Source: the human T2T-CHM13v2.0 reference genome, Homo sapiens. From it: a stretch of DNA of 64,000 nt. Under the pieces are notes generated by a model. That model did not search any database and was not told the origin of the DNA. It saw only the letters and a program-made list of their open reading frames with translations. Position 1 is the stretch's first letter, and every line of letters starts with the position of its first letter. The stretch lies in the NCBI RefSeq assembly GCF_009914755.1, contig NC_060940.1. One strand, written 5' to 3'. Position numbers and translations under genes: made by a program. This document shows, piece by piece, positions 711 to 7,526 of this stretch.

Positions 711-2075
<1,365 letters not shown>

Positions 2076-2214
2076 TAGACTACCATCATAGATGGTACAA
2101 ACACTTCCCAGTTTGTTGCTTTCGTTTTGTTTGTTGCCATTTTTACTATACAGAAAAAAAAGGCAATAAAGGATACATTATTATAATATGTTAATTTCTA
2201 CTGCATTATTTTTA

Positions 2215-3268
2215 ACAACTTCATTGAGGTGTAATTTACATACCGTAAAATCTATCCATTTTAGGTGTAGGATTCAGTGATTTCTGGTAAATTTACTGAG
2301 TTATGTGACCATCACCACAATCTGGTTTTGGGACATTTTCATTACTGCCATAATATTCCTCAAACCCATTTAGAATCATTCCTATTTCTGCTCCCAGGCC
2401 CAGGCAACCAGTAATCTACTTGCTGTTTCAATAGATTTGCCTTTTCTGGATGTTTTACATAAATAGAATCATACAATACGTGATCTTTAGTGATCTTTTT
2501 TCACATGGCATAAACTTGGTTCCTTTTTATGTTGAATAATATTCCATTGTATAGATATGTCACAGTTTGTTTCTCCATTCATGAGCTTTTGGGTATTTGG
2601 GTTGATTTCACTTTTTGACTGTTATGGATAATGCTGGTACAAACATTCATATACAAGTTTTTGTGTAGATGTATATTTTCATTTCTCTTGGAATAGACCT
2701 AGGCGTGGAATTGCTGGATTAGATGGTAATTCTATTGTTTTACATTCTAAGGCAGGGGTCCCCAACCCCCAGGCTACAGATCAGTGTCGGTTCATGGCCT
2801 GTTAGGAACTGGGCCGCACAGCAGGTGGTGAGCGGCCATTGGGCGAGTATTACTGCCTGAGCTCTGCCTCCTGTCGGATCAGCGGTGCCATTAGATTCTC
2901 ATAGGAGCACAAACCCAGTTGTGAAATGCGCATGTGAGGGATCTAGGTTGCGAGTTTCTGATGAGAATCTAATGATAAATGTAATGAGCTTGAATCATCC
3001 CGAATCCATCCCCCAACCCCAACCCCCGTCCGGGGAAAAAATGATCTCTCATGAAATCAGTCCCTAGGCCAAAAAGTCTGGGGACTGCTGTTCTAAGGAA
3101 CTGCCAAAACTGCCAAACTGTTTTTCAGAGTGGCTGGACCATTTTACATTCCCACCGGCAATATATACGGTGTCCTGTTTCTTTACATCCTCATCAACAT
3201 GTGTCTTTTTCATTACAGCCATTCTATGTGGGTGTGAAACGCTATGTGGCTGTGTTTTTCATTTCCAT
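2215..3268 (-). mobile_element. Old L1M 3' region, interrupted by MER1B
   Basis: Antisense L1 motifs such as aatattccattgtatagatat, ggaattgctggat, cattttacattcccacc. Confidence 0.75.
2753..3090 (+). mobile_element. MER1B-like hAT-Charlie element inserted in old L1
   Basis: CAGGGGTCCCCAACC...GGGGACTGCTG termini, 338 bp, 8-bp TSD TTCTAAGG (2745-2752 / 3091-3098). Confidence 0.85.
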
Positions 3269-3348
3269 GCAGAAATTTTTAATTTAATTGCTTAGTTAAA
3301 AATAATTCTTTAAATTTAAAACACTCATATTGCCATATGTATATTTTT

Positions 3349-4531
3349 ATACTACAAAGTGATACAATTTTTGTTAATTTTCTTGCCTTGATTACTCTTT
3401 ACCTGTATAGTATTTAAATCTTTACATAAGATCACAATTATAGTGAATAGTAATTTATTCAACTCAAAATCTTCATAGGATTTAGAAAATTTAAGTCCTT
3501 TACCAAAGGGATTGACTTTTAACTTCATTAAAGGTTGCGAACAGTATCAAATCCTTGGTAAAGCCACATTCAATCTTTGGCACTCCAGGATTTTGAGCTA
3601 TAACTGTAGTGATCACTAATATGTCATTTCTAAGCTGACGGTCATAATGACTAAAACCTCTCATAGATAGATTTTAAAATACTTCCTTCAAAGCCAGTAA
3701 ACATTCCAAGTTACTAAGCTGTTGAACAATTTCTTATTTTGAAGATTTTTTCTGATAAGTTCCAAAGTGTTTCTGATGAAGGAAATAAAAGCTGTCCAGA
3801 GAAATCTGAGTCATTGAGGTGAGCACAGATTCCTTTGGCTGCTTGTGCTTTCATCATTACAGTACAATTAACTTCAGAAGTCGAGAGATGCTGCAGAATT
3901 TTAAGTACCCAAAGTTTCTCAACAAGTTGATTTTCAAGCAAGGTCATTAACTGGGCCATTGTTTTTGCCAATCCTCCAACTTCAGCCATTTGAATCTTGT
4001 ATGATGAACTCACTTGCTGGTAACCTGGAATATGCTCCTTTGGTGGTTGTGCCTGATAAAAGTCAACAATACGTTTACAATTTTTTATCCTCAATTCAGA
4101 ACTTGGTATTTTCATTAAGTCACCCAGAAGCGCAACTGAACTAGCAGTATCTCCAGCATAAGTTATTTCATCCGATACTTTCTTTTTCAAAAATGGCAAG
4201 CCACACTATTTTATGATATCATATGCAGATTCTACAAAATGCGGCTGGTTTTCAATTTTTACTGCACACAGATTCAGAATTTCAAATGTCTGTACTAAAT
4301 CCCTTAAGGGAAGTTCATTCTGATAACACTGTACCAGTTTCTTGACAGATTTAAGTTGCTTTTCTTCTAAGCCTTCTTTAGCAGTCTCTTCAAAAAGTTT
4401 GATGACACCATTAAGGTCCACAGGCTTCAAAACACCAGTTCCACATGGCGAGGGAGGCCTTGGGAAACATCATCATGATGGAAGGCAAAGGGGAAGTAAA
4501 GACCTTCTTCATGGTGGCAGGAAAGAGACAG
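3349..4531 (-). pseudogene. CFAP69P1: Processed pseudogene of CFAP69 (coding homology 3403-4436), antisense in NLRC5 intron
   Basis: Intronless KPVDLNGVIKLFEET...PFLKKKVSDEITY...SYEDFELNKLLF...CKDLNTIQ matches recalled CFAP69 (aa ~41-385); stop at 4206-4208, frameshifts near 3745 and 3505; symbol from memory. Confidence 0.9.
4437..4531 (-). mobile_element. THE1 (C/D-like) MaLR LTR fragment forming the 5' end of the retrocopy
   Basis: Minus strand TCTCTTTCCTGCCACCATGAAGAAGG...CCTTCCATCATGAT...AGGCCTCCCTCGCCATGTGGAACT resembles recalled THE1 consensus up to the GGAACT|GTGAGT donor. Confidence 0.85.
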
Positions 4532-5027
4532 CATATTGCTATGTATTTTAACACCACTTATTTCCCCCCTTTTTTCTTTCAATATCATGGATTAAATAGT
4601 GTATTTTAAATGAGTGTGAGGCTCACTTGGACTCTATTCCATCCCTTTGGCCAATTTTTTTCCATTTTTAATCCAAGAATCTTAAAGTTTGAATGATGGT
4701 CACCTTGTTATATATTTTATTATGTTTGGAAGCTTTTTTGCTATTGTCTGATCCTCCCAACAAATAGCCTTTTGATAGAATTGCCTTTATTCGTTTCTTT
4801 ATATCTAATTCTAACTTAAGATTAGACTTAAAAGTAACTTCAGCGGTTTTATTATGAAATATTTAAGGCATATAAATACTGCCTCTTTTCTCTAAATGAC
4901 TGCTAATATAATTTTACCAAGTTCTGTTAAAGTATCCTGTTGTACATAAAGTGCTGTTGTTTTTTATCTGCCTGTTAACTTAGAGTGGGTTTTATTTTCT
5001 TTCACTTTCTGTGGTCGAAGGCAAGTA

Positions 5028-5727
5028 TGTCTTAGTCAGTTTGGGCTGTTATAATGAAACACTGTAGACTGGGTGGCTTAAACAACAGAAAGTTGTTTCT
5101 CACGTTCTGAAAGCCGGGAAGTCCCCAATCAGGGAGCCAGCAGGCCTGGTGTCTGGAGAGGATGCGCTTCCTGGTTTGCAGACGGCACCTTCTCATTGTG
5201 TCCTCACAGGGCAGAGAGCAAAAAGAAAGGGCAAGCGCTCTCCAGCCTCTTCCTTTTTCCTTTTTTTTTTTTGTTTGTTTGAGATGGAGTCTTGCTCTGT
5301 TGCCCAGACTGGAGTGCGGTGGCATGATCTTGGCTCAATGCAACCTCTGCCTCCTGGCTTCAAGTGATTCTCCTGCCTCAGCCTCCTGAGTAGCTGGGAC
5401 TACAGGTGCCTGCCACCATGCCTGACTAATTTTTATGTTTTTATTAGAGATGGGGTTTCATCATGTTGGCCAGACTGGTTTTAGACTCCTGACCTCAAGT
5501 GATCTACCTACCTTGGCCTCCCAAAGTGCTGGGATTACAGGCGTGAACCACCGCACCCGGCCTCCAGCCTCTTCTTGTGAGGGCAGTAATCCCATCATAA
5601 GGGGTCCACCCTCTTGACCTAATCACTTCGCAAAGGTCCCACTTCCAAATACCATCACACTGGGTATTTAGGCTTCACCAGGTGAATTGGTGGGGGAGGT
5701 GGGACACAAACATTCAGTCCACGGCAA
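5028..5727 (-). mobile_element. MLT1A-like MaLR LTR interrupted by antisense Alu (~5253-5562)
   Basis: TGTCTTAGTC...ggtggcttaaacaacagaaa...gggacacaaacattcagtcc; Alu TSD TCCAGCCTCTTC. Confidence 0.8.
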
Positions 5728-5804
5728 GTTTTTATCTCAATTTGCTAAAGCCTCTCTTTATTTCTCCTGTTACAGTGTGATAATGTTTTTTAAAATATCA
5801 TTTA

Positions 5805-6615
<811 letters not shown>

Positions 6616-7411
6616 TCAAAAGATCTCTCTTTTCCTTTCTTATTTCTAATTACCATACTACATACCACCTCCATTATGTCAGAATGTGCCCTATTTACGT
6701 GGATTTGTCTAAAGTCATGGAACTCTGAGTTACATTCCTCGTATTTCACAGAGACACAATCAGAGCACACGCTTATCTTCCGCCTCTCTTCATTTCCTCC
6801 ATGTACTCTGTAGCTACCTGTTCTCTTCTTTGTTCGTAGGAAGATCTCTGTTGCGTGGTGTGGGAGTTTGTGCCAGCTCATCTTTTTATTGTGCTTTCTG
6901 TGAGCAGCTATCAATGCCTCCAGGTCTTCTCTTTAAGAAGAATGTTTACTCTCAATTGTTTAAAAAACTAACTAAATAGGAAGAAGATTGCAAATCCTAA
7001 CCTTTTTGGGGTTTTATATTGGGGGCAAAAGTTGGCATCTGCAGTAAGGATTATTTCATTTTCATCTGAATAAATGAGCAGTAATAACTTTGCTGACTTG
7101 CAGGGCTCATTGTGATGCCAAAGGACATTGTAAGGTGCATATCTGAATTGGAGGAGGAAGAGGGGCATCCTCTGAGCCAGGTGTGGCAGGAGGTGACATC
7201 AAGGAGGGTTAGGCTGCGTAAACCCAGGGACACAAGGAGCTGCAGTCGGGGAAGAACAAGGTCTAGCGGATGGAGTTGGGGGGACTGTGTCTGGAGCCAA
7301 TGTTCTCAGATGTGTCTCCGGCAGGCAGGGGCAAGGGCTGGTGCCTGGTTTACAGCATTCCTTTTGGAGTCTGGAATAGTGGGGAAAACTCCCTGTCTTC
7401 TCTCCCCTTAG

Positions 7412-7526
7412 GAGTCTGCACTATGGAAACAACCTGTCAATCCAGCTCAAGGCACACATAGCCCAGACACCCATGAGACCCTCTCCGTGGGGACCCTAGA
7501 GCACCTATCATGAACGAGGAGACCAA
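7412..7526 (+). other. NLRC5: NLRC5 non-coding 5' UTR exon carrying uORFs
   Basis: tctccccttag|GAGTCTGCAC...GAGACCAA|gtaggt; matches recalled NLRC5 mRNA leader. Confidence 0.8.

What the first reader, a model, noticed from the sequence alone, without database searches (positions are those of the whole stretch)
4420..4551. CFAP69 retrocopy preserves an LTR-initiated transcript: THE1 exon spliced onto CFAP69 coding sequence
Seen (minus strand): TT|AAAATACATAGCAATATG, then 95 nt of THE1-like LTR ending GCCATGTGGAACT, joined directly to GGT GTT TTG AAG CCT (parent D-V-F-K-P, aa ~41). Knowledge (recalled): THE1 LTRs carry a splice donor at GGAACT|GTGAGT and start transcription ~30 nt after their TATA box. 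The fragment stops exactly at that donor and starts about where the LTR TSS should be, without U3/TATA. The normal ~40-aa CFAP69 N-terminus is missing. Inference: this is a 5'-complete copy of a germline or early-embryo mRNA driven by a THE1 promoter that replaced CFAP69 exon 1, not an LTR that inserted here. All LTR-exon ATGs (4512, 4476-4470, 4446) are out of frame, so that isoform would start at an internal Met.
Basis: partly seen in the sequence, partly recalled or inferred. Interest (0 to 1): 0.8.

Follow-up and report, generated by a model that had tools for sequence, protein, structure and literature searches.

The report
Retrocopy preserving an LTR-started CFAP69 transcript
A dead, reverse-transcribed copy of the sperm-tail gene CFAP69 on chromosome 16 begins with a piece of an ancient retrovirus-like repeat spliced onto exon 2, which records that a repeat inside the parent gene once launched a shortened transcript in the primate germ line.

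Summary

- **What the retrocopy is.** CFAP69P1 (minus strand, 3347-4531) is an L1-type processed pseudogene. It is bracketed by 18-nt target-site duplications, and the 5' one follows TT|AAAA.
- **5' end.** Its first 95 nt (4531-4437) are one segment of a THE1/MST-type MaLR LTR. The segment starts about 32-34 nt downstream of where the TATA box lies in the parent-locus LTR. It ends exactly at the LTR's GGAACT|GT splice donor.
- **Junction.** Base 4436 is the first base of CFAP69 exon 2. Canonical exon 1 (40 codons) is absent.
- **Parent locus.** On chr7, a sense solo LTR of this kind sits in CFAP69 intron 1. It lies 3.5 kb after exon 1 and 6 kb before exon 2, with TATA box and donor intact. It shares with the retrocopy a 2-nt shortening carried by about 1.2% of genomic copies.
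- **3' end (new here).** The retrocopy ends 56 nt into intron 11, 23 nt after an AATAAA. It therefore copies a complete short isoform: LTR exon, exons 2-11, intronic poly(A) site.
- **Control.** An older chr1 retrocopy carries the canonical exon 1-exon 2 junction.

Not shown: that the LTR was the promoter rather than only an exon, the subfamily name, and any present-day expression. This is a new example of a known kind and of moderate interest.

The parts
4532..4549 (-). 5' target-site duplication AAAATACATAGCAATATG, preceded by TT (L1 endonuclease-type TT|AAAA site)
   Evidence: It aligns 18 of 18 bases, with 2 gaps, to 3346-3326. 0 of 5000 random pairs reached the score.
4437..4531 (-). LTR-derived first exon: 95 nt of a THE1/MST-type MaLR LTR, running from about 32-34 nt downstream of the TATA position to the GGAACT| splice donor
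   Evidence: It is 78/95 identical to chr7 91497564-91497659. It shares a 2-nt shortening with that copy (0 of 50 other copies aligned; 235 short against 19181 long matches genome-wide).
4436..4437 (-). Splice junction: last base of the LTR exon (4437) joined to the first base of CFAP69 exon 2 (4436)
   Evidence: The parent donor is GGAACT|gtgagt and the parent acceptor is ttttag|GATGTT. The alignment is collinear without a gap.
3403..4436 (-). CFAP69 exons 2-11, spliced, now a pseudogene
   Evidence: All 10 of 10 parent exons are flanked by ag...gt. Identity is 943/1033 (91.3%). Read straight in frame there are 15 stops, the first after 76 codons.
3347..3402 (-). 56 nt of CFAP69 intron 11 retained up to an intronic poly(A) site. 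The parent's AATAAA corresponds to AACAAA at 3375-3370.
   Evidence: Identity is 51/56. Homology to chr7 stops at 91525677, 23 nt after the AATAAA at 91525649-654.
3326..3346 (-). 3' target-site duplication AAATATACATATGGCAATATG. Any poly(A) remnant is at most about 3 A and merges with it.

Best explanation
CFAP69P1 is an L1-made retrocopy of a complete, short, alternative CFAP69 mRNA.

**How the source transcript was made.** Transcription began in the sense-oriented solo MaLR LTR (THE1/MST group) that lies in intron 1 of CFAP69 on chr7. It started about 30 nt downstream of that LTR's TATA box. The LTR's own donor (GGAACT|GT) was spliced to exon 2, so exon 1 and its start codon were skipped. 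Exons 2-11 were spliced normally. The RNA was cleaved and polyadenylated at an AATAAA-directed site 56 nt into intron 11.

**How the copy arose.** This RNA was present in germ-line or early-embryo cells. There L1 reverse-transcribed it into a TT|AAAA site in what is now an NLRC5 intron, antisense to NLRC5. The copy has decayed since.

**Shown:** the retrocopy's structure, its TSDs, exact splice-site junctions at both sides, the parent LTR's position, strand, TATA box and donor, and the intronic poly(A) signal.

**Inferred:**
- That this chr7 LTR is the source.
- That it acted as the promoter.
- That the cell type was germ line or early embryo. This follows from heritability.
- The age, roughly 30-55 Myr. 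This rests on 9% (exon) to 16% (non-coding) pairwise divergence and on recalled primate neutral rates.
For: **Retrocopy structure**
- TSDs bracket the LTR piece together with the CFAP69 part. The 5' TSD abuts base 4531 and follows TT.
- The junction 4437|4436 falls on the LTR donor and on the first base of exon 2.

**Parent locus (chr7)**
- The exon 1 coding part is 91493733-852. It lies in a CpG island and its donor is at 91493853.
- The LTR spans about 91497373-743, on the same strand as the gene, with TATAA at 91497532-536.
- The retrocopy's first base aligns to about 91497564-566.
- Exon 2 is 91503719-778.
- BLAST of the retrocopy against chr7 91468001-91507000 gave only this one LTR hit.

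**Link between the two LTR pieces**
- The retrocopy and the chr7 LTR are both 2 nt shorter in the same 8-nt stretch. 0 of 50 other copies aligned show this.
- Genome-wide, 235 matches have the short form and 19181 the long form, so the short form is about 1.2%.
- The chr7 copy ranks first of 51 copies in shared-rare-state information, 30.8 bits against 29.5 for the runner-up.
- Both have CTGTCT in the CT run. 5 of 50 other copies do.
- At all 19 columns where the two differ, one of them carries the commonest state: the retrocopy at 8 and the chr7 copy at 11.
- By chance, 0.03-0.13 sense copies are expected in the 9.9-kb intron.

**3' end**
- Homology runs 56 nt past the exon 11 donor and stops 23 nt after the parent's AATAAA.

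**Control**
- The older chr1 retrocopy (69% identity) carries exon 1 joined to exon 2. Its exon 1 alignment scores 48 against a null maximum of 35 in 300 shuffles.

**Published parallels**
- Use of GGAACT| as a donor by a THE1B LTR is visible in the THE1B-HEY1 5'-RACE clone (PMC3836709, supplement 1, read whole and by eye).
- The THE1B-CSF1R review passage also describes an LTR splice donor (PMC5134097).
Against: - **The LTR piece is unusually diverged.** It is 78/95 (82%) identical to the chr7 LTR. The exons are 943/1033 (91%) and the intron piece is 51/56 (91%). At the rate of the rest (8.6%), P(17 or more mismatches) is 0.003. The excess is acceptable only if both lineages drift neutrally at 12-14.5% pairwise (P 0.06-0.22).
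- **Raw identity does not single out the chr7 copy.** It is row 31 of 40 when the retrocopy piece is the query, and the best other copy is at 86%. The retrocopy piece is not among the 40 rows listed when the chr7 piece is the query.
- **The information-score margin is small**.
- **No clear poly(A) tail remains.** At most about 3 A lie between the last parent-homologous base and the TSD.
- **The 5' end could be a truncation.** It may reflect 5' truncation by L1 rather than a start site. The published THE1B-HEY1 RACE clone extends upstream of that LTR's TATA-like motif (read by eye). MaLR start sites are therefore not always TATA-directed.
- **No record of a CFAP69 LTR isoform was found.** There were 0 occurrences of CFAP69 or C7orf63 in the 4 held supplementary files of PMC6102241. 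There were also 0 in the 7 held files of PMC3836709, one of which was cut when stored.
Confidence: 0.8

Rival explanations
1. The LTR segment was an internal (cassette) exon, or part of a longer 5' exon, of a transcript that began elsewhere, either at the canonical CFAP69 promoter or further upstream in the LTR. L1 reverse transcription stopped early, so the retrocopy's 5' end is a truncation point and not a start site.
For: - 5' truncation is common for L1-made copies (established knowledge, recalled).
- The THE1B-HEY1 RACE clone reaches upstream of that LTR's TATA-like motif (read by eye).
- Nothing in the window can tell a cap site from a truncation point.
Against: - The 5' end falls 32-34 nt after the first T of TATAA in the parent LTR. 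That is the classical TATA-to-start distance (recalled).
- The chr7 LTR shows no convincing acceptor just upstream of that point. The sequence there is a CT run, and the nearest AG (aagAG|gtt) lacks a pyrimidine tract before it (read by eye).
- The 3' end is a genuine poly(A) site, so the copy is complete at that end.
Confidence: 0.1
2. The chimeric mRNA was real, but its LTR exon came from another THE1/MST LTR. Candidates are a copy further upstream of CFAP69, or one since lost. The intron-1 LTR would then be a coincidence.
For: - Identity to the chr7 LTR is 82%, no better than to many unrelated copies at 81-86%.
- The divergence is twice that of the exons.
Against: - No other matching LTR lies in chr7 91468001-91507000.
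- The expected number of sense copies in intron 1 by chance is 0.03-0.13.
- The chr7 copy shares the 1.2%-frequency 2-nt shortening.
- It also shares the CTGTCT variant, found in 5 of 50 other copies.
Confidence: 0.07
3. No spliced chimeric mRNA existed. Three variants were considered:
- The LTR piece was already at the chr16 site.
- It was joined by reverse-transcriptase template switching between two RNAs.
- The copy was made by an LTR element's own machinery.
For: Template-switch and LTR-mediated chimeric retrocopies are documented (PMC5470649, passages).
Against: - The TSD lies outside the LTR piece and is of L1 type.
- Both sides of the junction fall exactly on splice sites of the parent locus.
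- Only one flank carries LTR sequence, and only 95 nt of it. LTR-mediated copies are flanked by LTR sequence on both sides.
Confidence: 0.03

Closest known systems
THE1B-HEY1 chimeric transcript (Young et al. 2013, PMC3836709; passages, supplement 1)
   Same: - A MaLR LTR upstream supplies the first exon.
- Its GGAACT| donor is spliced towards exon 2.
- The product lacks the first about 38-40 codons and would start at an in-frame ATG in exon 2.
   Different: - HEY1's LTR lies 40 kb upstream of the gene and splices via two extra exons.
- It is documented by RT-PCR and RACE in living cells.
- The CFAP69 case is intronic, splices directly, and is known only from a fossil copy.
THE1B-CSF1R LTR-driven transcript in Hodgkin lymphoma (review PMC5134097, passages)
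   Same: A solo THE1 LTR about 6 kb upstream initiates transcription and uses a splice donor inside the LTR.
   Different: It is somatic cancer activation giving a full-length protein. Here the transcript is germ-line, ancient and N-terminally truncated, and it also ends early.
LTR-initiated transcription units in oocytes (Brind'Amour et al. 2018, PMC6102241, passages)
   Same: - 639 human genes have an LTR-initiated isoform spliced into a genic exon.
- MaLR LTRs with a canonical donor are major contributors.
- The germ-line setting is the one a heritable retrocopy needs.
   Different: [quoted passage not shown] The evidence here is genomic, not RNA.
Retrocopies used to read how parental genes were transcribed (PMC7692494, title and start of abstract only; the 'genomic fossils' idea of processed pseudogenes is recalled)
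   Same: The ends and splice pattern of an L1-made copy are taken as a record of the source RNA.
   Different: That work concerns microRNA host transcripts. I found no description of this CFAP69 copy. One search (CFAP69P1) returned 1 paper, a TCGA differential-expression list.

Membership tests
L1-mediated processed pseudogene | Intron-less copy of a spliced mRNA on another chromosome | tested here: met
   Exons 2-11 are joined at the parent's ag/gt boundaries, 10 of 10 exons. The parent is on chr7 and the copy on chr16.
L1-mediated processed pseudogene | Target-site duplications at an L1 endonuclease-type site | tested here: met
   18/18 bases match with 2 gaps. 0 of 5000 random pairs reached the score. 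TT precedes the AAAA-starting TSD. The endonuclease consensus is recalled.
L1-mediated processed pseudogene | 3' poly(A) tail | tested here: inconclusive
   At most about 3 A lie between the last parent-homologous base (3347) and the TSD, which itself starts with A. The tail was either lost or cannot be told apart from the TSD.
LTR-initiated chimeric gene transcript (LTR as alternative promoter) | Sense LTR upstream of the acceptor exon at the gene locus, with an intact donor | tested here: met
   The chr7 LTR is at about 91497373-743 on the plus strand, in intron 1, with GGAACT|GTGAGT.
LTR-initiated chimeric gene transcript (LTR as alternative promoter) | Exon junction at the LTR donor and a genic acceptor | tested here: met
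   4437|4436 corresponds to chr7 91497659|91503719.
LTR-initiated chimeric gene transcript (LTR as alternative promoter) | Transcript 5' end at the LTR's start site | tested here: inconclusive
   The 5' end is 32-34 nt after TATAA, as expected. A truncated copy could end there by chance, and no CAGE or RACE data were at hand.
LTR-initiated chimeric gene transcript (LTR as alternative promoter) | RNA evidence for the isoform | not testable with these tools
   No expression data were available. CFAP69/C7orf63 was absent from the held supplements of two LTR-transcript papers.
   No Dfam or RepeatMasker library was available. The segment belongs to a population of at least 19416 genomic matches that share the donor and a TAAGTTTCC-containing stretch. 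THE1 against MST was not resolved.
Template-switch or LTR-mediated chimeric retrocopy | Junction unrelated to splice sites, or LTR sequence on both flanks | tested here: not met
   The junction is on splice sites at both sides. LTR sequence is on one side only.

The most novel reading that the evidence does not exclude
The intron-1 LTR is a true, and perhaps still active, germ-line or cleavage-embryo alternative promoter of CFAP69. Its product is a distinct short isoform. In today's sequence the ORF runs from Met46 through exon 11 plus 16 intron-coded residues, 356 aa in all, and ends at an intronic poly(A) site. That isoform could have a role of its own, or could act by transcription across the locus, for example by setting oocyte methylation as described for LTR-initiated units. 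More broadly, TSD-bounded retrocopies with LTR first exons could be mined as a dated fossil record of which individual LTR promoters fired in the primate germ line tens of millions of years ago.
Probability: 0.2. Interest if true: 0.55.

Novelty: new member of a known kind. Interest (0 to 1): 0.4.

Why it matters
A heritable retrocopy can only be made from RNA present in germ-line or early-embryo cells. This pseudogene is therefore physical evidence that one particular MaLR LTR inside CFAP69 supplied a first exon, and most likely the promoter, in an ancestral simian germ line. It also shows that this transcript ended at an intronic poly(A) site.

The copy gives base-exact coordinates for three features that can be looked for directly in oocyte, embryo and testis RNA data: a start, a junction and a 3' end. 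It also shows that the RefSeq span of CFAP69P1 (3383-4446) misses both informative ends.

The phenomenon itself is well known: LTR alternative promoters, and pseudogenes as transcript fossils. The value here is as a clean, fully bounded example rather than a new principle.

Tried and rejected
- **Raw identity ranking to pick the source LTR.** It was uninformative. The chr7 copy is row 31 of 40, and the retrocopy piece is absent from the 40 rows of the reciprocal search. I turned to shared rare states instead.
- **First spliced-model alignment.** My LTR-exon span was one base too long because it included the G of the GT donor. That produced a spurious 1-nt gap at the junction. One search repeats it with the boundary read, and I use those numbers.
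- **Codon-position test for constraint on the parent lineage.** Differences were nearly flat (8.4%, 8.1% and 9.6% at positions 1, 2 and 3). This was too noisy to split the divergence between the two lineages.
- **Literature.**
  - CFAP69 + LTR gave 3 papers.
  - C7orf63 + retrotransposon gave 1.
  - CFAP69P1 gave 1.
  - CFAP69 + transposable element gave 8.
  - A mixed CFAP69/MaLR query showed 10 of 567 papers, none of the 10 holding CFAP69.
  - By title and abstract start, none concerns an LTR-driven CFAP69 isoform. I did not open these papers.
  - Journal papers outside the library and the PDF supplements could hold it.
- **Pre-existing LTR fragment, template switching, LTR-mediated retroposition.** Rejected for the reasons given under the rival explanations.
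Full report
**1. What is in the window**

On the minus strand the sequence reads, in order:
- ...GTGTT|AAAATACATAGCAATATG (4549-4532).
- 95 nt of repeat-like sequence (4531-4437) ending GCCATGTGGAACT.
- GGTGTTTTGAAGCCT..., which continues as CFAP69-like sequence.

Translated from 4436, the CFAP69-like part reads GVLKPVDLNGVIKLFEE... and meets a stop after 76 codons. Read straight through, it holds 15 stops.

**2. The 95 nt are one segment of a dispersed LTR and nothing more**

A search of the window's own genome with the 95 nt returned 40 listed rows out of 692 first-look candidates. These were the piece itself plus 39 copies at 81-86% identity.

In an alignment of 50 distinct other copies, the copies continue past GGAACT with GTGAGTCA. 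24 of 50 do so exactly as GGAACTGTGAGT, and 28 of 50 fit GGAAYYGTRAG. The retrocopy's piece therefore ends exactly where these LTRs carry a consensus 5' splice site.

The whole chr7 LTR region was compared by BLAST with window 2000-7000. The only match with E below 0.001 was 4526-4436. There is no U3/TATA part and no post-donor part nearby.

**3. It lies inside the retrotransposed unit**

The 18 nt just upstream of 4531 recur just after the last base homologous to the parent, at 3346-3326. 18 of 18 aligned bases are identical, with a 1-nt and a 2-nt gap. The score is 26. 0 of 5000 random pairs of window segments at the same spacing reached it, and the highest null score was 24.

The 5' copy is preceded by TT, giving TT|AAAA. 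That is the L1 endonuclease target (recalled knowledge). So the LTR piece and the CFAP69 part arrived together, by L1 machinery.

One weak point: almost no poly(A) tail is left, at most about 3 A, and these merge with the A-starting TSD.

**4. The parent locus**

The own-genome search placed the parent on contig C7, plus strand, exon by exon. I fetched the 5' region.

- **Exon 1.** A CpG island (L009 5201-5900) holds exon 1. The ATG is at chr7 91493733, followed by 40 codons (MWTEEAG...DDEAQ) and a donor at 91493853.
- **Exon 2.** It is 91503719-91503778, with acceptor ttttag|GATGTTTTCAAGCCTATGGAC. Base 4436 of the window aligns to its first base. The retrocopy's GGTGTT differs from the parent's GATGTT by one substitution.
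- **The LTR.** It lies between the two exons, on the same strand, at about 91497373-91497743. Its extent was set by comparison with six other copies. It has TTTTATAAGAGG (TATAA at 91497532-536) and GGAACT|GTGAGTCAATTAAA (the exon would end at 91497659).
- **The 5' end.** The retrocopy's first bases (CTGTCTCTTTCCTGCC) align to CTCTGTCTTTCCTGCC at about 91497564-566. That is 32-34 nt after the first T of the TATA box.

Both sides of the window's junction thus coincide with a donor and an acceptor of the parent gene, 6 kb apart. Canonical exon 1 is skipped.

**5. Is that LTR the source?**

*Raw identity does not say.*
- The chr7 copy is row 31 of 40 (82%) when the retrocopy piece is the query.
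- The retrocopy piece is not among the 40 rows when the chr7 piece is the query.
- This is expected if both have drifted from a typical copy.

*Shared rare states do say something.*
- Both are 2 nt shorter in the same stretch, where the others read TGTAAG. 0 of 50 other aligned copies are.
- Genome-wide, a pattern for the short form matched 235 times and the long form 19181 times. The short form is therefore about 1.2%.
- Both have CTGTCT in the leading CT run, shifted by one CT unit. 5 of 50 other copies have it.
- The chr7 copy ranks first of 51 in an information score of shared states, though narrowly: 30.8 against 29.5 bits.
- At all 19 columns where the two differ, one of them holds the commonest state: the retrocopy at 8 and the chr7 copy at 11. 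This pattern is expected from two lines descending from one typical copy.

*Position adds weight.*
- The expected number of sense copies in the 9.9-kb intron by chance is 0.03. That uses the density of pattern matches.
- It rises to 0.13 using the THE1A-D and MSTA/C/D copy numbers tabulated in PMC3836709.
- No other matching LTR lies in chr7 91468001-91507000.

*Against.*
- The LTR piece is 78/95 (82.1%) identical to the chr7 LTR.
- Exons 2-11 are 943/1033 (91.3%) and the intron piece is 51/56 (91.1%).
- At the rate of the rest, 17 mismatches has P = 0.003.
- If both unconstrained lineages give 12-14.5% pairwise divergence, P is 0.06-0.22.

I take the chr7 LTR as the source with about 85-90% confidence.

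**6.

Homology to the parent does not stop at an exon. It runs through the exon 11 donor (CAG|GTAAAG; window 3403|3402) for 56 nt of intron 11 and ends at chr7 91525677. That point is 23 nt after an AATAAA at 91525649-654. In the retrocopy the hexamer now reads AACAAA (3375-3370). The spacing is that of a normal cleavage site (10-30 nt, recalled).

The copy is therefore complete at its 3' end. It records a short isoform: LTR exon, exons 2-11, intronic polyadenylation.

In today's chr7 sequence such an RNA (1187 nt) has out-of-frame ATGs in the LTR exon and at the start of exon 2. The CFAP69 frame opens at Met46. It would run 356 aa and end 16 codons into the intron.

**7. A control from the same gene**

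A second, older CFAP69 retrocopy lies on C1 at 217536031-217536711, minus strand, at 69% identity. Upstream of its exon 2 part it carries sequence alignable to canonical exon 1, joined at the exon 1|exon 2 boundary. The exon 1 alignment scores 48, against a null mean of 21.5 and a maximum of 35 in 300 shuffles. The LTR exon scores 24, within the null maximum of 26.

So the gene has left two fossils, one of the canonical 5' end and one of the LTR 5' end.

**8. Mechanism and timing**

*Shown:* structure, junctions, TSDs, and the parent's signals.

*Inferred:*
- The LTR fired as a promoter, judged from the position of the 5' end.
- The RNA was in germ-line or early-embryo cells, because the copy is inherited.
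- L1 made the copy, judged from the TSD and the TT|AAAA site.

*Timing.* MSTB, MSTA and THE1A-D are simian-specific, arose within the last 70 Myr, and MaLR activity ended about 45 Myr ago (PMC10735291, passages). Pairwise K2P distances are 0.093 for exons, 0.097 for the intron piece and 0.208 for the LTR piece. With recalled primate neutral rates these suggest roughly 30-55 Myr for the retroposition, that is, after the LTR inserted. This is an estimate, not a measurement.

**9. Comparison with what is known**

LTRs of this group are documented alternative promoters that use an internal donor.
- THE1B-CSF1R (PMC5134097, passages).
- THE1B-HEY1. It skips the first 38 codons and starts at an exon 2 ATG. 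It was verified by RACE and is active in testis (PMC3836709, passages).
  - In its RACE clone the LTR part ends at the complement of GGAACT (supplement 1, read whole and by eye, not aligned with a tool).
  - That clone also runs upstream of the TATA-like motif. This warns that MaLR start sites vary.
- Human oocytes have 639 genes with LTR-initiated isoforms (PMC6102241, passages).

Reading parental transcription from retrocopies is also an established idea (PMC7692494, listing only).

I found no mention of this case:
- Searches gave nothing relevant by title or abstract.
- CFAP69/C7orf63 is absent from the 4 held supplementary files of PMC6102241.
- It is also absent from the 7 held files of PMC3836709. 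One of those was cut when stored, and 12 PDFs could not be read.

**10. Verdict**

It is a clean, fully bounded new example of a known kind. The subfamily name, promoter use and present-day activity remain open.

Noticed in passing
window 3347-3402 (-); parent G000:C7:91525622-91525677 (L011 423-478): The retrocopy ends in CFAP69 intron 11, 23 nt after an AATAAA in the parent. This implies an intronic poly(A) site and a short CFAP69 isoform that stops after exon 11.
   Followed up: yes
L012 (G000:C1:217534001-217539000), match at C1:217536031-217536711, minus strand: A second, much older CFAP69 retrocopy (69% identity). It carries the canonical exon 1-exon 2 junction rather than the LTR exon. 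Its ends and TSDs were not examined.
   Followed up: partly
window 3383-4446 (RefSeq CFAP69P1 span) against 3347-4531: The annotated pseudogene span leaves out 85 nt of the LTR-derived 5' exon and 36 nt of the intron-derived 3' end. The TSD-bounded unit is 3326-4549.
   Followed up: yes
PMC3836709 supplement 1: The published THE1B-HEY1 5'-RACE clone extends upstream of the LTR's TATA-like motif. DUX4-driven starts in these LTRs therefore need not be the TATA-directed one inferred here. It was read by eye only.
   Followed up: no
window 3326-4549, inside an NLRC5 intron upstream of exon 7412-7526: The retrocopy lies antisense to its host gene NLRC5, a few hundred bases from RefSeq enhancer marks at 4942-5372. 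No link between them was examined.
   Followed up: no
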